DNA of 11,728 bases from a virus (IMGVR_UViG_2565956624_000004:1-11728), one strand, 5' to 3'. Positions 1-11,728 are shown, counted from the first letter of the stretch. The notes: a model not told the origin generated them from the letters alone. A program made the numbers and translations.

Positions 1-195
1 TCTCATATCAGGGACTTGTTCGCACCTTCCTTAGCACGTTTCTGTGATGCAGCAGCGAAAGCGCAGGACGCTAACAAGCTGCGTGAAATATTTGGCAAAT
101 GCTGGAAATTACTACCGGAAGGATCGGAACATCGAATCAAGGCAAAAGATGTTTATGACATCCGGGTAGCAGAGCTTAACGGGGAGATGGGTTAA
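1..195 (+). CDS. hypothetical protein, 3' fragment (start lies upstream of window)
   Basis: Frame 1 is open from base 1 to TAA at 193-195 (...DVYDIRVAELNGEMG*). The stop overlaps the ssb ATG as TAATG, implying translational coupling. No recognisable motif in the 64 visible residues. Confidence 0.4.
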   Translation, partial: SHIRDLFAPSLARFCDAAAKAQDANKLREIFGKCWKLLPEGSEHRIKAKDVYDIRVAELNGEMG

Positions 196-3413: not shown

Positions 3414-3606
3414 ACATTACATGGAATGGAAAATTCCAGAAGCAGCAACAAAGGCAGCGCCAGGAAATTATTCTGGCGTTTATTTTTATATGGATGGCAA
3501 ATGGTATTTCGGCAGCAGGCCGGATCACTATTATCAGGAAATATGCAAGCCTCACGTATGGGATATTAAAGAGCGCGTGAAAGGCGGGGTAATTGAGGAC
3601 GTTTAA
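3403..3606 (+). CDS. hypothetical protein (67 aa)
   Basis: ORF overlapping the upstream gene by 11 nt; Tyr/Trp-rich; no domain recognised. Confidence 0.45.
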   Translation: MKFKHYMEWKIPEAATKAAPGNYSGVYFYMDGKWYFGSRPDHYYQEICKPHVWDIKERVKGGVIEDV

Positions 3607-3607
3607 A

Positions 3608-3844
3608 ATGCTTAAGAGCTTTTTTAACTGGTTGGGGGCGTGGCTTTTGGCTACGCTTTTTGTTTTCCTGGCGGCCATGACTGTTATCGGTGTTATTATG
3701 CTGGGGGCTATGTTTATTACGTGGTCGCTTCCTGAATTTAACGACATTGGGAATATTCTTTTTGCAGCCCGCGCTTTATTGGCTGTTAGCGCATTCATTG
3801 GTTTTTGCTGGACTGCCGCGCCGGATTGGACTGACACATGGTGA
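3608..3844 (+). CDS. small integral membrane protein (about 2 predicted TM helices)
   Basis: ATG 3608 (track ORF begins at a TTG at 3593), GAGGA SD upstream. Two long hydrophobic segments (WLLATLFVFLAAMTVIGVIMLGAMFI and LFAARALLAVSAFIGFCW). Confidence 0.5.
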   Translation: MLKSFFNWLGAWLLATLFVFLAAMTVIGVIMLGAMFITWSLPEFNDIGNILFAARALLAVSAFIGFCWTAAPDWTDTW

Positions 3845-3848
3845 TCCT

Positions 3849-4082
3849 ATGGCCTTATTCAATATGTCAGAGCCGCAATTTAACGCCGTAAAGACTGCCG
3901 CCCGCGCCGCGCTTTCGGCCTGCAAAGCGGAGGTAGAGAAAAACGGCTACAGCGATAAAGCCACGCGGATGATATTAGATAAGCATTATCGCAAAGTCGC
4001 CCCACTAATCAGCATTGAGCGCTTTGTGTGGTTGGTGGGGTATTTAAACAACCGTTGGGGAACGAAACAGGATTATTTCTAA
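3849..4082 (+). CDS. hypothetical protein (77 aa)
   Basis: In-frame ATG 3849 within track ORF 3690-4082, directly after the upstream stop at 3844; no domain recognised. Confidence 0.45.
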   Translation: MALFNMSEPQFNAVKTAARAALSACKAEVEKNGYSDKATRMILDKHYRKVAPLISIERFVWLVGYLNNRWGTKQDYF

Positions 4083-4091
4083 GGGGGCGTA

Positions 4092-4631
4092 ATGAAAAGT
4101 GATTACGGCGGCAGCCATACGCCGAAAGAAATAAAAGACTTATGGCAAACGCCAAAACCCGTTTTTAGAGGAATGGATCGCGAGTTCGAATTTGTCGCAG
4201 ATGTGGCGGCAAACAGGGAAAACGCGCTCGTTCCTCGGTATATAACTGAAGAAATGGACGCGCTTACTTATCCGTGGGGAGCGGTGGCAATGCCTGGCGA
4301 ATATGTATGGATGAATCCACCATATTCAAACCCAGGTCCATTCGTTGATAAAGCAGCGCTCGAACATCAACGAAATCACATCGGTTGCGTAATGTTATTG
4401 CCCGCTGACGTTTCTGTTAGCTGGTTTATGAACGGCGTTGAGACGGCAAATGAGTGCCGATTAATCACGCGCGGGCGGCTGGCGTTTATCAATGCTGCGA
4501 CTGGTAAGCCAGTAAGCGGAAACAATAAAGGGAGCTTGTTTTTGATCTGGCATCCACGGTGCAGACATGAATGTATTTTCACGCAGATAACACGTAAAGA
4601 GCTATATGCAAGAGGTGCAGATAATGACTAA
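4092..4631 (+). CDS. phage-type DNA N6-adenine methyltransferase (Dam-like, NPPY motif)
   Basis: Translation has N-terminal WQTPKPVF and the catalytic motif IV NPPY (WMNPPYSN). This pattern and the ~180 aa size match the small phage Dam family (T1 Dam-like) as I recall it. Confidence 0.75.
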   Translation: MKSDYGGSHTPKEIKDLWQTPKPVFRGMDREFEFVADVAANRENALVPRYITEEMDALTYPWGAVAMPGEYVWMNPPYSNPGPFVDKAALEHQRNHIGCVMLLPADVSVSWFMNGVETANECRLITRGRLAFINAATGKPVSGNNKGSLFLIWHPRCRHECIFTQITRKELYARGADND

Positions 4632-5109
4632 TGCAGCAGATTTATTACGACTTGCAGCGGAAACAATAGAGCAAAGAGGTAAACAAAACGGTTACGACAG
4701 AAAAGAAGAAAAATCAGCGCCAAAAATAGCCACTATATACAACGCTAAGAAGGGGACAAATTTAACCCCGCTTGATGTATGGGATCTATTAATTTGTCTC
4801 AAGGAGGCGCGTTTAGAGGCCATTTTAGTTAATGAAAGCGATCCTACTGACACTTTGGTTGACTTGATTAGCTACAGCGCACTAAAAGCGGAGCAGATAT
4901 TAAACGATCAGGAGGAAGAACGGAAGAAAAAACAGTTCACTGCCGCCAATATTAATGATGGAATAATAAATGATGCAGCAATAACAAGCTGTAAGGGCTT
5001 GCCTCCTTCAATGCTTAACCCTCAATGTCGTTGTACTACTGATTCGCTTGATTTGAATTTTGACTTCAGTCGGAAGAGGGATAACCAAAATGAAAAAGGT
5101 GACAATTGA
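4624..5109 (+). CDS. hypothetical protein with low-complexity C-terminal half
   Basis: ATG 4624 with SD AGAGGTG 6 nt upstream (track ORF starts at 4606). Overlaps the methyltransferase stop. C-terminal half is N/D/K-rich low complexity. Confidence 0.5.
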   Translation: MTNAADLLRLAAETIEQRGKQNGYDRKEEKSAPKIATIYNAKKGTNLTPLDVWDLLICLKEARLEAILVNESDPTDTLVDLISYSALKAEQILNDQEEERKKKQFTAANINDGIINDAAITSCKGLPPSMLNPQCRCTTDSLDLNFDFSRKRDNQNEKGDN

Positions 5110-5593
5110 CAGGTTACTGGCCTGCGTTTATGTCGCCGTTTTCGTGATCATCAACCTTATTGTTAACCATTGCGGCCCGTGGGTAATTCCGATCACCACG
5201 GTAGCCGCAGTGTGTGTCAATATGATGATCCGCGACTTTCTGTTATATGACGGCGGCCTGAAATGGTCGGCTACAACGTGCGCAGCCGCTGGCGCAATCA
5301 CGGTGCTGATAAACTACGATGCCGGAATGGTGGCGGTCGCGTCATTCGTTGCGGTTGTTTCCGGTGCGCTTATATCTGGCGGCGTTTACCGGGTTTTACC
5401 TGGTGATTTCGATTCCAAACGCTGGCCTGCAAATATAGCTTCAGCCATTGGAGATGCGTTAATTTTTCCCACGCTATCGTTTATGGCATTTATGCCGGAA
5501 ATATCAGCTATGCAATTCATCTCAAAAATGGCAGCGGTAACGGTGATCACTATCATCATGCGCCGCTATTTTACGTTTGAGGGCAGAAAATGA
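5090..5593 (+). CDS. integral membrane protein, possibly VUT/YhhQ-family (queuosine-precursor-transporter-like)
   Basis: ATG 5090 (track ORF starts at TTG 5060). Several hydrophobic helices. The segment IASAIGDALIFPTLSFMAF resembles the conserved C-terminal segment of YhhQ/DUF165 proteins (TASTLFGNVSDTLAFFFIAF) as I recall it. The family assignment is tentative. Confidence 0.45.
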   Translation: MKKVTIDRLLACVYVAVFVIINLIVNHCGPWVIPITTVAAVCVNMMIRDFLLYDGGLKWSATTCAAAGAITVLINYDAGMVAVASFVAVVSGALISGGVYRVLPGDFDSKRWPANIASAIGDALIFPTLSFMAFMPEISAMQFISKMAAVTVITIIMRRYFTFEGRK

Positions 5594-6354
5594 GTGGGCT
5601 TAAAAATTGGGTGGTGTGGTCGCTGTACGACGGCAGCGGGTACGCCGTTAAAGATTGGGCTGACGCTGGCTATAAGTGTTATTGCTTCAACTATGACGGC
5701 GCTAACCACGGCGACTATGAAGGCGTAAAAATCATTCATCCGAATATTGAATACGTTAACGTATGGATTGACAGCCATTTCCTGGTGATGTTCTCCCCTG
5801 ATTTGTCTGTTTATCCAGATCCTGACATTATTCTGGCCTTCCCGCCATGCGACCATCTAGCCGTGTCCGGCGCTCGTTGGTTTGCCAGCAAGCGTGAAAA
5901 AGATCCTGACTTCCAGGTGAAGGCGGCATATAACGCAAAACTGGTAGAAACGCTGGCTGACATGTATCACGTCCCGTGGATGGTGGAAAATCCGGTTGGC
6001 GCACTGTCAACGTTATGGCGTAAGCCGGATTTTATCTTCAACCCGTGCGCTTACGGTGGCTACCTGCCTGAAGATGACAAACATCCTGCCTTCCCGGAAT
6101 ACATCGCCGACCGCGACGCATACACGAAGAAAACTTGTATCTGGTGCGGGAATGGATTTAATCAGCCGCTATTCCTGCCTGTGCCAATGCCTGATGAATG
6201 GGAAGACAGTAAGCAGCACGCTAAGTTAGGAGGAAAGTCGAAACGCACTAAGATGATCCGCTCACTAACGCCGCGTGGCTTTGCCCGTGCTGTATTCCTG
6301 GCTAACGACCGGGCCATCAATCGTACTACGCTCAACCGCGTTTTACCGGACTGA
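5590..6354 (+). CDS. compact DNA (cytosine-5)-methyltransferase-like protein
   Basis: Motifs in canonical C5-MTase order: motif I-like SLYDGSGYA, motif IV FPPCDHLAVSGA (Pro-Cys dipeptide, but PCD instead of PCQ), motif VI MVENPVGAL (ENV-like), motif IX-like RSLTPRGFARAVFL (RxLTPRExARLQGF pattern). At 254 aa it is short for the family. Confidence 0.6.
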   Translation: MSGLKNWVVWSLYDGSGYAVKDWADAGYKCYCFNYDGANHGDYEGVKIIHPNIEYVNVWIDSHFLVMFSPDLSVYPDPDIILAFPPCDHLAVSGARWFASKREKDPDFQVKAAYNAKLVETLADMYHVPWMVENPVGALSTLWRKPDFIFNPCAYGGYLPEDDKHPAFPEYIADRDAYTKKTCIWCGNGFNQPLFLPVPMPDEWEDSKQHAKLGGKSKRTKMIRSLTPRGFARAVFLANDRAINRTTLNRVLPD

Positions 6355-6376
6355 AGTTTACAAAATGGCGTCATTG

Positions 6377-6437
6377 TGTGATACAGGTCACATAATGGCG
6401 CTTTTCGTCTTGTTTACGTGTATCCATTTTGTATACT
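6377..6437 (+). promoter_or_regulatory. putative sigma70-type promoter (-35 TTGTTT 6410-6415, 16-bp spacer, -10 TATACT 6432-6437) with an upstream CRP-like palindrome TGTGA-N6-TCACA (6377-6392)
   Basis: Hexamers and palindrome read directly from the 160-bp gap between the stop at 6354 and ATG 6514. The palindrome matches both half-sites of the CRP consensus and is centred about 60 bp upstream of the predicted start site. Confidence 0.35.
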
Positions 6438-6513
6438 TCAAGCAAACGAAATGCTCTTTAAAAATCCGGCAGCGCTGAAATGCGTAGAAATCACCTTAAA
6501 GGGAGGGAGCATT

Positions 6514-6690
6514 ATGTCTTTTGATAATTACCAATGGCATGACGACTATGAACGAGAAAGCGTCATGCGTGCAATGTGCAATGTATGCAGCACAAAGAAA
6601 GGAGGCTGTAACGAGTGCAACGAATGCTTAGATCATTGGCTAAGGGCCGGACACACCGAAAGGCTGAACGAAACAGAGAATCAAAAATAA
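6514..6690 (+). CDS. small Cys-rich (zinc-ribbon-like) protein, NinF-like
   Basis: ATG 6514 with strong SD GGGAGGGAG upstream (the track's longer 6418 start lacks this). CxxC...CxxCxxC pattern (MCNVCSTKKGGCNECNEC). Sits immediately upstream of ninG as NinF does in lambda; the NinF resemblance is from memory. Confidence 0.45.
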   Translation: MSFDNYQWHDDYERESVMRAMCNVCSTKKGGCNECNECLDHWLRAGHTERLNETENQK

Positions 6691-6704
6691 TAGGGGTGGT
6701 TTTT

Positions 6705-7310
6705 ATGCAGAACCCTAAAAAACCAATAAGACGCCGTTGCAAGTGCTGCGGCGTTTTTTTTGAGCCTAAATATCACAATCAAACGTGGTGCAGTGATGAG
6801 TGTCTGGAAGAGCTGAAGTTTGATCAGCTATGCCGCGACCGTGAGAAGGCTATGAAGGCTATGGAACGGAAGAAACGCCGTGATAGCCAGCGGGAAGAAC
6901 GCAACCGGAAGCGGAAGCAGTTAAATCCGCGTAGTTATTGGTTGAAGCAGGCACAAGCGGTATTTAATGCCTATATCCGCGAACGTGACGCGGGTCAGCC
7001 GTGCATATCATGCGGGACTTACTATTACGAACAATGCGGAGCAGATGCCGGACACTATAGAACGGTTGCCGCCGCCGGGCACCTTCGTTTTAACGAGGAT
7101 AATTGCCACAAACAATGCAGGCACTGCAACCAGACATTAGATGGCAACATAGAAGCATATCGCCCAGCGCTGATTAGGAAAATTGGCCTTGCCAGGGTGG
7201 AAGCGCTGGAGAACAACAACGAAACTCATAAATGGGCGATCGAAGAATGCAAGGAGATCATAAAAGTCTATCAGGCTAAATTGGACGCCTTAAGGAGAAA
7301 GGCAGCATGA
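6705..7310 (+). CDS. ninG: NinG/Rap-family recombination protein (structure-specific endonuclease)
   Basis: In-frame ATG 6705 with SD GGGGTGG. Translation carries NinG hallmarks: N-terminal RRRCKCCGVFF, PRSYWLKQAQ, PCISCG, DAGHYR, LRFNEDNCHKQCRHCN, and C-terminal IEECKEI. Confidence 0.85.
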   Translation: MQNPKKPIRRRCKCCGVFFEPKYHNQTWCSDECLEELKFDQLCRDREKAMKAMERKKRRDSQREERNRKRKQLNPRSYWLKQAQAVFNAYIRERDAGQPCISCGTYYYEQCGADAGHYRTVAAAGHLRFNEDNCHKQCRHCNQTLDGNIEAYRPALIRKIGLARVEALENNNETHKWAIEECKEIIKVYQAKLDALRRKAA

Positions 7311-7708
7311 ATGAATATACTTTTAGCCTGCCTTACCCGCCATCGAACAATAAATATTACCGGCATTCGCGCGGTTTCCACTATATAAGCAAGGAAGGTA
7401 AGGAATACAGGGAGCAGGTAAAAGACATTATAAAACTGCTTAATCTGAAAATTAATCTTAAGTGTAGGCTATCAATAACGGTGTATATTGCACCGCCAGA
7501 TAACAGACGCCGCGATATTGACAATGTAGGGAAGGCATTATTTGACGCTATAACTTATTCCGGTTTTTGGGCTGATGATAGCCAGGTTGACGCAATGAAA
7601 TTTGTCCGCTGCCGGAAGGTAAAAAGAGGGCGATTGTTTATCAAGGTACGCGAACGCGGCGACCTGTTACCGGATATTAACGAATACTTGACTAATATGT
7701 GGTGGTAA
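7307..7708 (+). CDS. rusA: RusA-family Holliday junction resolvase
   Basis: Translation matches RusA along its length: YTFSLPYPPSNNKYYRH, PPDNRRRDIDNVGKALFDAITYSGFWADDSQV, RGRLFIKV. ATGA overlap with ninG. Confidence 0.85.
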   Translation: MNEYTFSLPYPPSNNKYYRHSRGFHYISKEGKEYREQVKDIIKLLNLKINLKCRLSITVYIAPPDNRRRDIDNVGKALFDAITYSGFWADDSQVDAMKFVRCRKVKRGRLFIKVRERGDLLPDINEYLTNMWW

Positions 7709-7710
7709 CA

Positions 7711-7893
7711 ATGAAAAACGAAATTAAAGATCTGCAAATAGATATTCAGCGCGACGAGCGTGATTTAGCCACAGTCCGACAAATTCAGGCTTTTCACATG
7801 CGAGAATTACTTGCACTGAAAGAGTTTGAAAGAAAGCTAGTGCAATCAATATCTGATCGCAAAAGACTGGTTGCACGTTACGGGGGTAAATAA
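7711..7893 (+). CDS. hypothetical coiled-coil protein (60 aa)
   Basis: ATG 7711 three nt after the rusA stop; charged, helical-looking sequence. Occupies the small-ORF slot often found between rusA and Q in lambdoid prophages. Confidence 0.45.
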   Translation: MKNEIKDLQIDIQRDERDLATVRQIQAFHMRELLALKEFERKLVQSISDRKRLVARYGGK

Positions 7894-8615
7894 TGAATTT
7901 GGAATCTATTCTTAAATTCCACTTCCCAAAATCACCGCGTTTGTCAGATGAAAGCCGGGGCACGTCCCCGGATGCGCTTAATACTACGGATGCGCTAACT
8001 GCCGCTGGTATGGCGCAATCGCGCGTAGAGCTTGGTTATAGCGCTTTTCTGGGAAAGATGGAACTATCACAAGCCGAAAAACATAAGGCCGTAGTTTTGC
8101 TTATAGAGCGTTTAAAGGCTATGGCAAAAGATTATGAATACGTTATGGAACTGGACGAGGCTAAACGCAATGATCTCATTATTCTTGTTGCCGTTTTCGC
8201 GTTTCGGGATTATTGCCAGAGTGCCGCGACGGAAAAAACTTGTATGGAGTGCGGCGGATATAAATTTACGTTTGACGAATACGGAGAAAAACACCTTTGC
8301 AAAAAATGCAAGGGGCATGGGAAGGTTCTCAATCATTGTAAACAATGCAAGGGCCGTGGCGAAGTACCGGATAAAGCAGCCAGCGAAGCGGCGGAAATGC
8401 CAGTGTTCAAAACGTGCCAGCATTGCGGCGGGCGCGGGTACTCGCGTTTCCCCGTAGATCTTGTGCGTCAGGCCGTTAATCAGCTTGTTTTTCCGGTAAG
8501 CCGATCAACCTGGTGGAAAAAATACCGGGTTTTCTATGAAGACGCCATAGCGGAGCTATTCAAAGAAGAGGGCCGCGCGGAAAGTGAAATCAAACGAGTG
8601 ACACGGGGTGAATAA
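7893..8615 (+). CDS. putative Q-like antitermination protein with DnaJ-type zinc finger
   Basis: Four CxxCxGxG repeats (CMECGGYK, CKKCKGHG, CKQCKGRG, CQHCGGRG), i.e. a DnaJ CR-type zinc finger. Position directly downstream of ninG-rusA is where Q sits in lambdoid phages. The Q assignment is inference from position plus zinc-binding architecture. Confidence 0.45.
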   Translation: MNLESILKFHFPKSPRLSDESRGTSPDALNTTDALTAAGMAQSRVELGYSAFLGKMELSQAEKHKAVVLLIERLKAMAKDYEYVMELDEAKRNDLIILVAVFAFRDYCQSAATEKTCMECGGYKFTFDEYGEKHLCKKCKGHGKVLNHCKQCKGRGEVPDKAASEAAEMPVFKTCQHCGGRGYSRFPVDLVRQAVNQLVFPVSRSTWWKKYRVFYEDAIAELFKEEGRAESEIKRVTRGE

Positions 8616-8815
8616 TGGATAAGCTGGAAATAAACGATCAGTTTGCCGTTATCTTATTTGAAGATAAAACAGGCGGCGCATGGTGTAAGAAAGTCACTGG
8701 CGCGGAAGCGCGTTTAATATTGGGTATGGCAAGCGCGTTAAATGAAGGCGAATTGCCAGCCATCCCTATTAAGCCTGTCAAAATTTACAAGCGGGGTGAC
8801 GATGATGAAGCCTAA
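8615..8815 (+). CDS. hypothetical protein (66 aa)
   Basis: ORF whose ATG overlaps the upstream stop (TAATG); acidic C-terminus; no domain recognised. Confidence 0.45.
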   Translation: MDKLEINDQFAVILFEDKTGGAWCKKVTGAEARLILGMASALNEGELPAIPIKPVKIYKRGDDDEA

Positions 8816-9074
8816 ACTAAAAGAACATCTATTTGCAAAGCTGGTTAATGACCTGACATTATCCGCGCGGTTGTGCCGTGATACACAACAATTGAGGGCG
8901 TGGATAGCAAGGGATTTAAAAAAATATATTGAGCCTGGCGGGCCGGGTGGCGAAATCACGATGGACGAAGCCATCAAGCGCCGTTCGGCTGAATGGTCAG
9001 TGAGTAACACCGGATTAACCGGATACATTGAAGGCTATAACGACTGTTTACAGGATCATAGCGATGGCAAGTAA
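8805..9074 (+). CDS. hypothetical protein (about 89 aa)
   Basis: In-frame ATG 8805 (alternative 8802) with SD GGGGTG 6 nt upstream, within track ORF 8742-9074; no domain recognised. Confidence 0.45.
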   Translation: MKPKLKEHLFAKLVNDLTLSARLCRDTQQLRAWIARDLKKYIEPGGPGGEITMDEAIKRRSAEWSVSNTGLTGYIEGYNDCLQDHSDGK

Positions 9075-9375
9075 AGACCTGCATTTGAATCTGAAAGGGG
9101 AATATTTCCACGCCATATGGACTGGAAAGAAGGTGGAGGAATACCGGCTTTATAATGACTATTGGCGTAAACGTCTGGAAGGGCGGGAATATGAACGCCT
9201 GATTATTAAATGGGGATACCCTGCCAACCACGAAAAACACAGGATTATTAACCTTCCTTATTTTGGGTACGAAGTAAAAACTATCACTCATCCATTATTC
9301 GGCCCTGATCCTGTTAAGGTATTCGCAATTAAATGTGACAGAAATTGGATGTTGAGAGGTGAAAATGAAAAGTAA
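9064..9375 (+). CDS. putative ASCH/PUA-like domain protein
   Basis: In-frame ATG 9064 with AGGA 8 nt upstream. N-terminal pattern LNLKGEYFHAIWTGKKVEEYR resembles the ASCH signature (hydrophobic strand, then G-K-K-x-x-E-x-R). Tentative. Confidence 0.4.
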   Translation: MASKDLHLNLKGEYFHAIWTGKKVEEYRLYNDYWRKRLEGREYERLIIKWGYPANHEKHRIINLPYFGYEVKTITHPLFGPDPVKVFAIKCDRNWMLRGENEK

Positions 9376-9580
9376 CCGCAAGCGCCTTGTAAGGGCGTAC
9401 GACAAAGCATTAAAGGCTTTTGATGATCTGCGACACAATAAACGCCAGCGCCGCAAATGGGCGCGTATGCTTGTTTATGAGTGGCATTATTCTGATGCTT
9501 TTATGGAAAGCGCACCGCTATTAACACAAGAACAAGCCGACGAAGTGGCTAACGATAACGTTTATTATATGATGTGGTGA
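9365..9580 (+). CDS. hypothetical protein, paralog A of a tandem pair
   Basis: ATG 9365 (track ORF starts at GTG 9359). MKSNRKRLVRAYDKALKAFDDL... ends ...DNVYYMMW. Clearly homologous to the next gene. Confidence 0.5.
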   Translation: MKSNRKRLVRAYDKALKAFDDLRHNKRQRRKWARMLVYEWHYSDAFMESAPLLTQEQADEVANDNVYYMMW

Positions 9581-9584
9581 CAAT

Positions 9585-9806
9585 ATGAAAAGTAACCGTA
9601 AGCGCATGATAAGAGCATATGATAAAGCGTTAATGGAATTTGACATACTACCACGCAGCAAGCGCCACCGCCGCCAATTTGCGAGATATATTTTTCATAT
9701 ATGGCACGATGCTGATTTCTTTTTTGATGCCAGATATATAACACAGGAAGATGCTGATAATATAGCTTACGATAACGTTTACTACATAATGAGTGAGTGT
9801 AATTAA
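9585..9806 (+). CDS. hypothetical protein, paralog B of a tandem pair
   Basis: MKSNRKRMIRAYDKALMEFDIL...DNVYYIMSECN; N- and C-termini conserved with paralog A, central region diverged. Confidence 0.5.
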   Translation: MKSNRKRMIRAYDKALMEFDILPRSKRHRRQFARYIFHIWHDADFFFDARYITQEDADNIAYDNVYYIMSECN

Positions 9807-9807
9807 T

Positions 9808-10173
9808 ATGCAAATAATCATTGATTACCTTTGCCACGCTGTAAATACTCTTTTTGGTTTTTATCAACAACCATTCCTCAAAGAATGGGACGAAATGCTT
9901 AATGACATCATTGATAAAGGGTTAATAGTTGAGGTTGGCAAGCTAACGATAAAATTTAATTACGAAGGCAAAGAATATGAAATATGGGTAGGTAATAGAT
10001 GGTACTCATACGGGCATATTTATTCAATTGGCGGCAAATACATTAAACGTAGCCAGGAGTTCAGGCCGCGATTCCGCACAATGCGCCGCCTGCGTGACCT
10101 GCATATGAATATATTTGAAAATCAGGAAGCGTGTGAACTATTCAAGATCTACGGGGATAAATCATGGAGCTAA
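9808..10173 (+). CDS. hypothetical protein (121 aa)
   Basis: ATG 9808 two nt after the upstream stop (track ORF starts at GTG 9793); no domain recognised. Confidence 0.5.
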   Translation: MQIIIDYLCHAVNTLFGFYQQPFLKEWDEMLNDIIDKGLIVEVGKLTIKFNYEGKEYEIWVGNRWYSYGHIYSIGGKYIKRSQEFRPRFRTMRRLRDLHMNIFENQEACELFKIYGDKSWS

Positions 10174-10394
10174 AAATCTGGCAGGCTATTGACGTGGTTG
10201 ATAATGAATTGTCTATGTTCGCCACTAACGGGAAACGCGTTGTGATCGCTACATGGACACGTAACCATGATGATATTGCTTTTCGTCGCAAGGCTGCGGA
10301 ATGGCTTTTCTCAGATGGCGGCTACACGATGAACATCGCACAGCTTGCCAGAATGAAAGATGAAAAGCTGGTGGACAGCTACACAACTGCGTAA
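10164..10394 (+). CDS. hypothetical protein (76 aa)
   Basis: ORF overlapping the upstream gene by 10 nt; no domain recognised. Confidence 0.45.
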   Translation: MELKIWQAIDVVDNELSMFATNGKRVVIATWTRNHDDIAFRRKAAEWLFSDGGYTMNIAQLARMKDEKLVDSYTTA

Positions 10395-10404
10395 TGGGGT
10401 GAAT

Positions 10405-10635
10405 ATGCGTATCTATGAACACAAGCGGGATAAAACCCGCTTTTTTGTTCGTGCTGGCGTGGCGTACCAGTATCACGAATGCGGTTACATTGAGGCGCTT
10501 GCTTACGATCTGGATTTTGAGCAAGAAAAGGCATGGTTCGATTTTAAAATTTACCGGAAGCGCAAACCAACACGCGACGAGCGCCACGCTATCCGGGACT
10601 TTTTAATCAGTATTGAGCGCTGGGGGACAGATTAA
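10405..10635 (+). CDS. hypothetical protein (76 aa)
   Basis: In-frame ATG 10405 with GGGGTG upstream, within track ORF 10360-10635; basic protein; no domain recognised. Confidence 0.4.
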   Translation: MRIYEHKRDKTRFFVRAGVAYQYHECGYIEALAYDLDFEQEKAWFDFKIYRKRKPTRDERHAIRDFLISIERWGTD

Positions 10636-10862
10636 TGAAAGTAAAATTCTTGCACGATCACGGTTATCCGTCATTGAAACAGGTTGTTGGTAAGGTGGTT
10701 GACGTCGTTCATAGTGATAATGTCACTTGCATGATTAACGGTGCTGACCTAATTGCCGCTGGCGCTGATGATCATTACATTAATCCTGCATGGTCGTATA
10801 CGTTCAGCCTGGGAGACTTCGTTGGCGACAAGGGGCGCGGGCTGGAAGTGGTCGAGGGTTAA
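10635..10862 (+). CDS. hypothetical protein (75 aa)
   Basis: TAATG overlap with the upstream gene; no domain recognised. Confidence 0.45.
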   Translation: MKVKFLHDHGYPSLKQVVGKVVDVVHSDNVTCMINGADLIAAGADDHYINPAWSYTFSLGDFVGDKGRGLEVVEG

Positions 10863-10866
10863 CATC

Positions 10867-11115
10867 ATGGACGTTTACGAAGATCTATACCTCCATACAG
10901 ACATAAACACTTTTTATTTTCTTAAAAACGGCGTCGTGTATCGCAGTGACGACGGGGTGATAATGAAAGAGTGGTTATTTAAGCGTAAAGACCTACTCGA
11001 CGATCTGGTTTTTGCCGGGATATTTCGTAAACGTCCGGCTAACCTGGAAGAAGAAATGTTGATAGAGGTATATCAAAATGAAAATCAGGGTAAGTTATTT
11101 CCGGGCGAAAGATAA
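10867..11115 (+). CDS. hypothetical protein (82 aa)
   Basis: In-frame ATG 10867 within track ORF 10753-11115, 4 nt after the upstream stop; no domain recognised. Confidence 0.45.
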   Translation: MDVYEDLYLHTDINTFYFLKNGVVYRSDDGVIMKEWLFKRKDLLDDLVFAGIFRKRPANLEEEMLIEVYQNENQGKLFPGER

Positions 11116-11329
11116 GGCAACGGGAAAGCAGATGGCGATCCTGGTTAACGAGGCGCAGTACATGTTTGTCCTTCAGCCGTGGTGTGTTGTAGACCTTAAC
11201 GACAATTGCCGCCGTCACGCTGCGCGGAGCGCTGTAGGCATGAAAGGATGGCAGCCGCGCGACATGGAAAACTATTGTGAATGGAAATTGGTGGCAAAAT
11301 ACACGGTAGACTATAAAGGGGTTTTCTGA
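11078..11329 (+). CDS. hypothetical protein (83 aa; alternative start 11132)
   Basis: ATG 11078 has GAGGT 8 nt upstream but overlaps the preceding gene by 38 nt. An internal ATG at 11132 would avoid the overlap. Two CxxC-like pairs (CVVDLNDNC, and one Cys in ENYCEWK). Confidence 0.4.
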   Translation: MKIRVSYFRAKDKATGKQMAILVNEAQYMFVLQPWCVVDLNDNCRRHAARSAVGMKGWQPRDMENYCEWKLVAKYTVDYKGVF

Positions 11330-11586
11330 TGGAACATTTATATTTTAATGTAATTCAGACTCGCGATCTCGACAAATTCAAAGACGGTAAGGTTTATTGC
11401 GGGGTTCAGATTTACGGTGCGCCTGGTGGTGATGGTGCAATGGCTATAACTGGCGATGATGGTAAGTTATATTTTGCTTATGCAAGCCATATCAATAACG
11501 CCTCTGGCTTGTATATTTATCGCATCGTGCATGATTTCCGTGAGATCGCTGTACTTCATGCTCGCGAAGGTAGTAAACCGGAATAA
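11329..11586 (+). CDS. hypothetical protein (85 aa)
   Basis: ATG overlapping the upstream stop (TGATG); Gly-rich segment GAPGGDGAMAITGDDG; no domain recognised. Confidence 0.45.
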   Translation: MEHLYFNVIQTRDLDKFKDGKVYCGVQIYGAPGGDGAMAITGDDGKLYFAYASHINNASGLYIYRIVHDFREIAVLHAREGSKPE

Positions 11587-11612
11587 ATGTGATCTACCAC
11601 ACAAAGTTTACG

Positions 11613-11640
11613 AAATGGCATTGTTTAGGCAGTGCCATTT
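11613..11640. promoter_or_regulatory. inverted repeat AAATGGCA-N12-TGCCATTT in a 96-bp intergenic gap (operator, weak terminator or RNA hairpin)
   Basis: Read directly; 8-bp perfect arms with a 12-nt loop, followed by TTGTTACATATAAG, which contains -10-like hexamers. Only a short T run follows the stem, so a strong intrinsic terminator is not supported. Confidence 0.2.
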
Positions 11641-11682
11641 TGTTACATATAAGCCACGGAAAGACGAATGGGAGGTAAGAAG

Positions 11683-11728
11683 ATGAACGCTAACGCTAAG
11701 GAAGGTGCGAATAAGCGGGGAAATTCTT
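11683..11728 (+). CDS. hypothetical protein, 5' fragment (continues beyond window)
   Basis: ATG 11683 with strong SD GGGAGGT 6 nt upstream; MNANAKEGANKRGNS... open to the window end. Confidence 0.35.
   Translation, partial: MNANAKEGANKRGNS

What the first reader, a model, noticed from the sequence alone, without database searches (positions are those of the whole stretch)
9359..9806. Diverged tandem gene duplication inside the small-gene array
Two adjacent 71- and 73-codon genes share near-identical first 7 codons (MKSNRKR) and a conserved C-terminal DNVYY motif, with nucleotide-level identity at both ends of each unit, but their central regions have diverged (for example RRKWARMLVYEWHYSDAF vs RRQFARYIFHIWHDADFF). 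Duplication followed by rapid divergence is typical of genes in conflict with a host target.
Basis: seen in the sequence. Interest (0 to 1): 0.5.

Follow-up and report, generated by a model that had tools for sequence, protein, structure and literature searches.

The report
Old tandem paralogs of small phage protein
Two neighbouring 71- and 73-codon genes in an E. coli prophage are true but ancient copies of one small helical phage protein of unknown function, both kept by purifying selection, so this is an ordinary shuffled accessory-gene pair, not a fast-evolving arms-race duplication.

Summary
Gene A (9365-9580) and gene B (9585-9806) are homologous over their whole length: 57% identity over 70 aa, E=2e-26, 67.6% nucleotide identity. 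Both have Shine-Dalgarno sites and the same confident predicted three-helix fold.

The "rapid divergence" reading is not supported:
- A vs B has dS=1.32 (near saturation) and dN/dS=0.24.
- No segment exceeds 1.
- Within allele types dN/dS is 0.06-0.31.

The window is the post-Q small-gene region of an mEpimmI (mEp021-like) E. coli prophage. The family is PHROG 8758. It has no known function, no Pfam, NCBIfam or PADLOC match, and no informative fold match.

Of 56 related loci, 45 carry one copy and 11 carry two. A is the ortholog of the usual single copy. B is a separate conserved lineage (100% bootstrap) that always sits second. It follows four different A allele types, is never alone, and is never paired with type A2, whose variable segment it most resembles.

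B is nucleotide-identical in prophages whose downstream gene differs by 13-15%. The pair was therefore assembled and spread by recombination at a conserved gene junction. mEp021 and mEp515 lack the family, so it is dispensable.

Function is inferred only: a small basic/acidic dipole protein that probably binds nucleic acid or a host factor.

The parts
9365..9580 (+). Gene A, 71 codons plus TGA. It is allele type A1 of the PHROG 8758 family and the ortholog of the single copy found in most related phages.
   Evidence: ORF and sequence. PHROG 8758 E=7.1e-27. Identical or near-identical single-copy proteins occur in mEp044, CB7286, GN04592 and IMG/VR loci. RefSeq annotates the same ATG start in UMNK88. 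AF2 gives pLDDT 88 with helices 4-23, 26-41, 44-49 and 55-70.
9585..9806 (+). Gene B, 73 codons plus TAA. It is a distinct conserved paralog lineage that is always the second copy.
   Evidence: ORF. PHROG 8758 E=2.7e-21. 57% identical to A. The B clade has 100% bootstrap. B is second in 36 of 36 B-bearing loci. AF2 gives pLDDT 87 with the same helices. GC is 36.9% against 44.4% for A.
9354..9364 (+). Shine-Dalgarno-like GAGAGG plus a 5-nt spacer ahead of gene A. It lies inside the 3' end of the upstream ASCH-like gene.
   Evidence: Read directly from the sequence.
9566..9587 (+). Conserved module junction TATATGATGTGGTGAcaatATG. It holds the last codons of A (Y-M-M-W-stop), which contain the GGTGA Shine-Dalgarno site for whatever gene follows, then the next ATG.
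   Evidence: In 13 loci the same junction precedes either another family copy (ATGAAAAGTAAC) or the downstream gene (ATGCAAATAATC).
9467..9550 (+). Variable segment of A (codons 35-62): the end of helix 2, the short helix and connector, and the start of helix 3. This segment defines the allele type.
   Evidence: Alignments. Lowest model confidence falls in residues 41-50. Synonymous sites between types are saturated here while the N-terminal half is nearly identical.
9687..9767 (+). Variable segment of B (codons 35-61). It is most similar to allele type A2.
   Evidence: 15-16 of 29 identical to A2 against 12 of 29 to A1.
9582..9854 (+). Tract with no nucleotide difference from E. coli UMNK88. 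It covers all of B and the first 47 nt of the next gene and is flanked by diverged DNA, so it is a recently exchanged module.
   Evidence: Mismatch positions run ...9547, 9581 | 9855, 9891... B shows 0/222 differences in 7 further loci whose downstream gene differs at 46-55 of 366 sites.
9064..9375 (+). Upstream neighbour, 103 aa, PHROG 625. RefSeq names homologs 'ASCH domain-containing' or 'RNA-binding protein'. It overlaps the start of gene A by 11 nt. This is context only and is not always present.
   Evidence: It is absent in mEp554 and mEp010.
9808..10173 (+). Downstream neighbour, 121 aa, PHROG 16975, unknown function (context).
7893..8615 (+). Q-like antiterminator gene. The small-gene array that contains A and B begins at its stop codon (context).
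   Evidence: Pfam Antiterm E=1.6e-28 and PHROG 127 E=4.8e-78.

Best explanation
SHOWN. A and B are two intact, translatable members of one small phage protein family, PHROG 8758. Members are about 66-73 aa and form a three-helix bundle. The N-terminal half carries net charge +9 to +12 and the C-terminal half -7 to -10.

The genes sit in the dispensable small-gene array downstream of the Q-like gene of an mEpimmI (mEp021-like) E. coli prophage. They are old paralogs. Synonymous sites are near saturation and both copies are under purifying selection.

The family exists as discrete, long-lived allele types that differ mainly in residues about 35-54 and share a nearly identical N-terminal half. 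Most phages carry one type. Some carry two in tandem.

B is a separate lineage seen only as a second copy. The array is built and reshuffled by recombination at a conserved junction (…ATGATGTGGTGAyAAyATG). This junction is both the C-terminus of the family gene and the ribosome-binding site of the next gene. The B module in this window has spread recently between prophages that are otherwise 13-15% diverged.

INFERRED. The genes are delayed-early accessory genes. Each product uses its invariant basic face (K2, K6, R10, K14, K26, R27, R29, R30, R34) to bind a polyanionic partner. I think nucleic acid (RNA or DNA) is most likely, at about 0.3, and an acidic host protein is the alternative. The variable helix-2/connector segment sets which partner or variant is recognised. 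On this reading, a phage with A1+B carries two specificities, B supplying an A2-like one.

The confidence of 0.75 refers to the SHOWN part. The mechanism is rated separately at about 0.3.
For: - **Homology and fold:**
- **Age and selection:** A vs B has dS 1.32 and dN/dS 0.24. No segment has pN/pS above 1. Within-type dN/dS is 0.06-0.31. In the NJ tree the B clade has 100% bootstrap and the A1/A1b/A2/A4/A5 clade has 100%.
- **Copy-number survey:** of 56 loci, 45 are single and 11 double. Arrangements seen are A1+B, A1b+B, A3+B, A4+B, A3+A5 and type6+A2. B is second in 36 of 36 loci.
- **B and A2:** B is never found with A2 (0/23 against 9/33, Fisher p=0.007).
- **Mosaicism:** between A types the N-terminal 34 codons are almost identical even at synonymous sites, while the middle is saturated. 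For example, window A vs mEp554 gives Sd 3/21 against 9.5/10.7.
- **Junction:** the conserved junction is shown.
- **Recent spread of B:** B shows 0/222 differences where the next gene shows 46-55/366.
- **Dispensable:** there is no family gene in mEp021 or mEp515, and mEp021 goes from Q straight to the homolog of window 10164-10391.
- **Lytic-cycle association:** the family also occurs as a single copy in Sashavirus and Kagunavirus phages, which I take from general knowledge to be virulent, so a lytic-cycle role is more likely than a lysogeny role.
- **Charge dipole:** conserved in all 14 diverse members examined.
- **Timing:** mEp021 annotates a terminator just upstream of the holin and none between Q and the array. 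This fits the late promoter lying after the array.
Against: No experiment, annotation or informative homolog bears on function.
- The basic face could simply be neutralised by the acidic helix 3 within the bundle.
- The B/A2 exclusion statistic is not corrected for shared ancestry, and 26 of the 36 B loci were fetched through B itself.
- NG86 estimates on about 70 codons with saturated dS are rough, and recombination violates the tree model.
- Expression timing is inferred from gene order only.
Confidence: 0.75

Rival explanations
1. One reading: a recent in-place duplication of A, followed by fast, positively selected divergence of the central region driven by conflict with a host target.
For: The central region is the most divergent part. 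The family shows several very different central segments and indels. Copy number varies between phages.
Against: - dS between A and B is 1.32, so the split is old.
- dN/dS is 0.24 overall and at most 0.63 in any segment.
- Each allele type is strongly conserved, including its 'variable' half (dN/dS 0.02-0.09 for A1-A3).
- B orthologs occur next to four different A types.
- B's middle is closer to A2 than to its neighbour A1.
Confidence: 0.07
2. A and B work only together, for example as a heterodimer or a two-component pair. The tandem arrangement would then reflect functional coupling, not two independent specificities.
For: B is never found without an A-type copy immediately upstream (36/36 loci). 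There are 4 nt between A's stop and B's start, and B's SD lies inside A's last codons, which allows translational coupling.
Against: A-type genes are alone in 45 of 56 loci, and the distant homologs in Sashavirus and Kagunavirus are single, so A does not need B. B is paired with four very different A types. No multimer prediction could be run.
Confidence: 0.2
3. B is a redundant copy drifting towards loss. The pair has no special meaning beyond a leftover of unequal recombination.
For: - B has the highest within-type dN/dS (0.31, and 0.58 in its C-terminal half).
- One locus has B interrupted by an in-frame stop (L045).
- A common B variant has an altered, extended C-terminus that runs into the next gene (P0014).
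- B has low GC.
Against: - B keeps every residue that is invariant in the family.
- dN/dS remains below 1.
- B folds confidently.
- The exact window B protein is indexed in 152 blocks of the public collection, and it is nucleotide-identical across diverged prophages. This looks like spread, not decay.
Confidence: 0.15
4. The ORFs are not real genes. The repeat would be a DNA- or RNA-level element.
For: None found beyond the presence of antisense ORFs in the mechanical list.
Against: Substitutions are concentrated at synonymous sites. The reading frame is conserved with in-frame indels across 80+ loci. Both genes have SD sites. There is no Rfam match. The AF2 models are confident.
Confidence: 0.01

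Closest known systems
PHROG 8758 (phage protein family, function unknown), e.g. Salmonella phage vB_SenS_Sasha gp14 (APU92770.1) and Escherichia phage vB_VIPECOTH07_00006
   Same: Both window proteins match the profile over their full length (E 7e-27 and 3e-21). Identity to Sasha gp14 and the Kagunavirus protein is 44-51%. Size, conserved residues and charge dipole are the same.
   Different: Those phages carry one copy, with unrelated neighbouring genes. From general knowledge they are virulent siphoviruses. The PHROG profile is 151 columns long and the window proteins match only columns 71-150, so some members are longer.
Single-copy orthologs in mEpimmI phages (mEp044, mEp010, mEp013, mEp554, MagusPhagus) described in PMC11893012
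   Same: They occupy the same genomic slot after the Q-like gene and have the same junction sequences. mEp044's protein is 94% identical to A.
   Different: Only one copy is present and there is no B lineage. The paper does not mention this family. mEp021 and mEp515 lack it altogether.
Small accessory genes of lambdoid nin/post-Q regions, and phage mosaicism with breakpoints at gene boundaries (general knowledge of lambdoid phage genomics; the introduction of PMC11893012 notes functional clusters of conserved genes with interspersed accessory genes)
   Same: Short, tightly packed, dispensable genes. Their presence varies between relatives and they are exchanged as modules at conserved junctions.
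   Different: No sequence relationship to any named nin gene. Here one family is stacked in tandem as distinct alleles.
Arginine-rich-motif RNA-binding peptides of lambda N / HK022 Nun (resemblance recalled from memory; a lead only)
   Same: Helix 2 carries an arginine-rich run (NKRQRRKWAR, or RRRIAR in some alleles), often with an aromatic residue, inside a small phage protein.
   Different: No detectable homology (no Pfam family). The genomic position is different, after Q and not next to an early promoter and nut site. The run is part of a folded three-helix bundle, not a disordered N-terminal peptide. The aromatic position is not conserved (W/F/I/L/V/Q).
Generic three-helix bundles, e.g. 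Set2 SRI domain 2a7o
   Different: 12% identity, a low Z typical of any small helical bundle, and no functional inference is possible. Foldseek against the PDB found nothing with E<=0.001.

Membership tests
PHROG 8758 | Significant full-length match to the family profile HMM | tested here: met
   A: E=7.1e-27, residues 1-70. B: E=2.7e-21, residues 1-69. Both match profile columns 71-150 of 151.
PHROG 8758 | Homology to a protein that a deposited record labels phrog_8758 | tested here: met
   VIPECOTH07_00006 is annotated phrog_8758. BLASTP to A gives 47% and E=4e-18, and to B 44% and E=4e-12.
True tandem paralogs (gene duplication) | Homology over the whole length, not only at the termini | tested here: met
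   57% identity over 70 of 71 residues, E=2e-26.
True tandem paralogs (gene duplication) | Both copies intact, with translation signals and the same fold | tested here: met
   Both ORFs are intact with SD sites. AF2 pLDDT is 88 and 87 with the same four helices.
Recent duplication under positive selection (arms-race paralogs) | Low synonymous divergence between the copies | tested here: not met
   pS=0.62, dS=1.32.
Recent duplication under positive selection (arms-race paralogs) | dN/dS above 1 overall or in the divergent segment | tested here: not met
   0.24 overall. Segment pN/pS is 0.09, 0.59, 0.63 and 0.32. Within types it is 0.06-0.31.
Recent duplication under positive selection (arms-race paralogs) | Individual codons with omega>1 in likelihood models that allow for recombination | not tested
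   PAML and HyPhy are not available. Sequences are about 70 codons long and alleles are mosaic.
Arginine-rich-motif antiterminators (lambda N, HK022 Nun) | Sequence membership in the curated family | tested here: not met
   No Pfam family at E<=10. NCBIfam gave only a 15.9-bit chance match to GapS1.
Arginine-rich-motif antiterminators (lambda N, HK022 Nun) | Binding of a boxB-type RNA hairpin | not testable with these tools
   Needs an RNA-binding assay.
Known anti-phage defence proteins (PADLOC-DB) | Match to any defence-system model | tested here: not met
   0 families at E<=1 for A and B.
Known phage anti-defence proteins | Homology to a characterised inhibitor, or inhibition of a defence system | not testable with these tools
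   No anti-defence library is offered. PDB sequence and fold searches found no such relative.

The most novel reading that the evidence does not exclude
The family is a polymorphic series of discrete 'specificity alleles' of a small phage host-takeover or counter-defence factor. Each allele type recognises a different variant of a host or competing-element target. Phages widen their range by stacking two types in tandem. B would be an A2-like specificity that is mobilised as a cassette and has recently swept through diverged prophages.
Probability: 0.15. Interest if true: 0.6.

Novelty: new member of a known kind. Interest (0 to 1): 0.28.

Why it matters
As it stands, this is a well-documented example of how temperate coliphages of the mEpimmI group shuffle and stack small accessory genes at conserved junctions. 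It also corrects an attractive but unsupported 'arms race' reading.

It would matter more if the discrete allele classes prove to be specificity variants of a host-directed factor. Supporting hints are the rule that B is only ever a second copy, the absence of B+A2 pairs, and the recent spread of an identical B module. The family would then be a compact, easily swapped system for studying how phages diversify target recognition. It would also give a function to a family (PHROG 8758) present in both temperate and, to my knowledge, virulent enterobacterial phages.

Tried and rejected
- **Curated protein families:** Pfam found nothing at E<=10. NCBIfam gave only a 15.9-bit chance hit to GapS1, whose cutoff is 320. 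PADLOC found nothing.
- **Solved structures by sequence:** only a 15-bit match to an arginine-rich stretch of Prp8, which is noise.
- **Exhaustive HMMER search of 1.84 billion representatives:** only 13 hits, none annotated.
- **GTDB species-representative genomes:** no locus found.
- **Conserved-neighbour analysis** between mEpimmI, Sashavirus and Kagunavirus loci: no shared neighbours, so no guilt-by-association.
- **Promoter scan of 7800-11728:** no more sites than in shuffles.
- **Rfam:** no match.
- **Literature:** the only paper on these phages (PMC11893012) does not mention the family, and accession and PHROG-id searches returned nothing.
- **Gene conversion homogenising the gene ends:** rejected, because synonymous sites there are not significantly more conserved.
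- **A heterodimer model:** could not be run.

Full report
**1. The observation**

The region holds two adjacent ORFs on the + strand. Gene A runs from ATG 9365 to TGA 9580 (71 codons). Gene B runs from ATG 9585 to TAA 9806 (73 codons).

BLASTP of A against B gives 40/70 identities, 52/70 positives, one single-residue gap and E=2e-26. Nucleotide identity over aligned codons is 142/210.

Each gene has a Shine-Dalgarno-like site. For A it is GAGAGG, 5 nt upstream. For B it is GGTGA, formed by A's last codons TGG-TGA, 4 nt upstream.

AlphaFold2 with a 23-sequence family alignment gives confident and equivalent models. A has pLDDT 88.1 and pTM 0.78 with helices 4-23, 26-41, 44-49 and 55-70. B has pLDDT 87.2 with helices 4-18, 26-40, 43-48 and 54-72. 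No other pair of proteins in the window's small-gene array is related.

**2. Where this is**

The window is about 87-88% identical over 81-94% of its length to the mEpimmI phages (mEp010, 013, 021, 044, 515, 554) and to phage MagusPhagus. This group was described in PMC11893012.

The window covers ssb, two DNA methyltransferases, NinG and RusA. It also covers a Q-like antiterminator at 7893-8615 (Pfam Antiterm E=1.6e-28) and then a run of small genes of unknown function.

Both ends of the window are IS5 termini. Two E. coli assemblies (L075, L084) are 100% identical to window 3585-11699 and read on without IS5 to the holin, lysozyme and spanin genes. The window is therefore a prophage segment bounded by IS5 copies. 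The right-hand copy is a simple insertion, and the left-hand end could not be compared.

In mEp021 the record annotates no terminator between Q and the array and a strong one just before the holin. I infer that the array is transcribed with the delayed-early genes. This is inference from gene order only.

**3. The family**

Both proteins match PHROG 8758 (unknown function) with E=7e-27 and 3e-21. Nothing matched in Pfam, NCBIfam or PADLOC.

- A profile search of 5.8 billion proteins found only 40 clusters, and every named one is an E. coli 'hypothetical protein'.
- An exhaustive HMMER scan of 1.84 billion representatives found 13 hits.
- GTDB species representatives gave no locus.
- tblastn against phage genomes found the family in five mEpimmI-type phages. 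It also found single copies at 47-51% identity in Salmonella phages Sasha, Sergei and Solent, in E. coli phages PJ16 and PDP46, and in a Kagunavirus. Their neighbouring genes are unrelated to those in the window.
- mEp021 and mEp515 have no copy. mEp021 passes from Q directly to the homolog of window 10164-10391, so the whole block 8615-10163 is dispensable for a plaque-forming phage.

**4. Copy number and allele types**

I scanned 56 loci with a family HMM: the window, 4 phage loci, 9 complete E. coli genome loci and 42 IMG/VR contigs. Of these, 45 have one copy and 11 have two. One of the 11 has its second copy broken by an in-frame stop.

The copies fall into discrete types that share an almost identical N-terminal half and differ in residues about 35-54, including indels:
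- A1: YSDAFMESAPLL (the window's A)
- A1b
- A2: EDFFLEARHM
- A3: a 66-aa form, EDDATIDCQ
- A4
- A5
- a divergent type 6
- B

Arrangements seen are A1+B, A1b+B, A3+B, A4+B, A3+A5 and type6+A2. I also fetched 26 loci through exact B-type proteins. Counting these, B is the second copy after an A-type gene in 36 of 36 cases and is never alone.

In the unbiased 56 loci, B accompanies 9 of 33 non-A2 first copies and 0 of 23 A2 copies (Fisher p=0.007, not corrected for relatedness). B's variable segment is closest to A2, at 15-16/29 identical against 12/29 for A1.

**5. Age and selection**

Nei-Gojobori estimates for window A vs B are pS=0.62, dS=1.32, dN=0.315 and dN/dS=0.24. By segment, pN/pS is 0.09 (codons 1-16), 0.59 (17-34), 0.63 (35-54) and 0.32 (55-70). 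Other tandem pairs give the same picture.

Within types, mean pairwise dN/dS is 0.06 (A1, 15 sequences), 0.11 (A2, 17), 0.09 (A3, 5) and 0.31 (B, 5). The 'variable' half of A1-A3 scores 0.02-0.09.

A neighbour-joining tree puts the three B sequences in a 100%-bootstrap clade, outside a 100%-bootstrap clade of A1, A1b, A2, A4 and A5. It places B as sister to all A types, though that deeper node is weak. B is 53-63% identical to A types, comparable to A3 vs the Sasha homolog at 64%.

The A/B split is therefore old and predates diversification of most A alleles. Both copies are maintained by purifying selection. B is somewhat more relaxed.

The apparent nucleotide identity at the gene ends is explained by amino-acid conservation. 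Synonymous differences occur in 3/11 end codons against 14/26 elsewhere (p=0.17). In addition, the last codons double as the ribosome-binding site of the next gene.

**6. How the pair was built**

In every locus the sequence TATATGATGTGGTGA(c/t)AA(t/c)ATG ends a family gene. It is followed either by another family copy or by the 121-aa downstream gene.

Between A types, the first 34 codons are nearly identical even at synonymous sites, while the middle is saturated. For window A vs mEp554, Sd is 3 of 21 sites against 9.5 of 10.7. This is the signature of recombination inside and at the edges of the gene.

Between the window and UMNK88 there is no mismatch from 9582 to 9854. The flanks differ by about 10-20%. 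In seven further A1+B loci, B differs at 0/222 positions, A at 4-7/216 and the downstream gene at 46-55/366. The B module has therefore moved recently between diverged prophages.

Public data also contain deletion fusions at the short repeats RKRL and RRKW (P0021, P0034, P0036). B's GC content is 36.9% against 44.4% for A.

Together these results favour assembly of the tandem pair by unequal or illegitimate recombination between phages carrying different family members, followed by modular exchange. They do not fit an in-place copy of A that then diverged.

**7. Function (inferred)**

Nothing here measures function. The following are shown or read directly:
- a small, confidently folded helical bundle
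- an invariant set of basic residues on helices 1 and 2
- an acidic helix 3
- a type-defining segment at the helix-2 end and connector
- dispensability
- presence in the temperate mEpimmI phages and in Sashavirus/Kagunavirus phages (virulent, from general knowledge)
- placement among other small accessory genes

My best guess, at about 0.3, is a nucleic-acid-binding accessory protein whose variable segment tunes partner recognition. Binding of an acidic host protein is the main alternative. The arginine-rich helix 2 recalls the RNA-binding motifs of lambda N and HK022 Nun, but this is a resemblance from memory. There is no detectable homology and the genomic position is wrong for such a role.

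**8. Verdict**

The duplication is real, but the pair is old, conserved, polymorphic in the population and recombinationally shuffled. The arms-race interpretation fails the tests proposed for it.

The family is catalogued (PHROG 8758) but uncharacterised, and I found no paper that mentions it. Three points are mildly interesting and not followed to a conclusion: B occurs only as a second copy, B is never paired with A2, and an identical B cassette has spread recently.

Noticed in passing
window 1-31 and 11699-11728: Both window ends are IS5 termini. The left end is …CTTGTTCGCACCTTCC followed by TTAG. The right end is CTAA followed by GGAAGGTGCGAATAAG…, and the two elements are in direct orientation. 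Two assemblies that are 100% identical over 3585-11699 (L075, L084) lack the right-hand IS5 and continue to the lysis genes. Another (L080) has an IS5-type transposase at a different site (about window 6647).
   Followed up: partly
window 8615-10163; L058 (mEp021) 2335: The whole block of five or six small genes that includes the ASCH-like gene, A, B and the 121-aa gene is absent from phage mEp021. There the Q-like gene is followed directly by the homolog of window 10164-10391.
   Followed up: yes
window 10867-11115: This 82-aa ORF is 91% identical to mEp021_41. That record annotates mEp021_41 as a virion structural protein, although it lies in the small-gene array far from the structural genes. 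PMC11893012 mentions a 'mislocated' virion protein with distant similarity to the RB69 translational repressor.
   Followed up: partly
window 10423-10442 (+): A good intrinsic-terminator-like hairpin with a T run (AAGCGGGATAAAACCCGCTTTTTTG) lies inside ORF 10405-10635. The mEp554 record annotates a predicted terminator at the equivalent place.
   Followed up: no
L006, L007, L009-L013 about 1870-2085 (between the ASCH-like gene and the family gene): Many related prophages carry an extra, unrelated 69-71-aa gene (MKKAGLSISRVLCGDENEIRIEIKF…) inserted just upstream of the family gene. It ends with the same GGTGAAAA-ATG ribosome-binding context. The window lacks it.
   Followed up: partly
proteins P0021, P0034, P0036, P0037 (public data): These look like in-frame deletion fusions. 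P0021 and P0034 join the ASCH-like gene's N-terminus to the family gene at short repeated motifs (RKRL, RRKW), and P0036 joins the family gene to the homolog of window 10164-10394 at RRKW. P0037 starts with an unrelated N-terminal stretch whose origin I did not check. They show frequent illegitimate recombination in this array.
   Followed up: partly
L036 1300-1485: One IMG/VR contig has a further, much more divergent family member (62 aa, MKSNLKRLVRAYDKCLCYFDDLKNNKRKRRRIARKLAKEW…). It lies upstream of an A2 copy and is the only case of an extra copy in the first slot.
   Followed up: no
window 9585-9806 vs 9365-9580: Gene B and the following gene are markedly AT-richer (36.9% and 38.5% GC) than gene A (44.4%) and the window as a whole (45.3%).
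   Followed up: no
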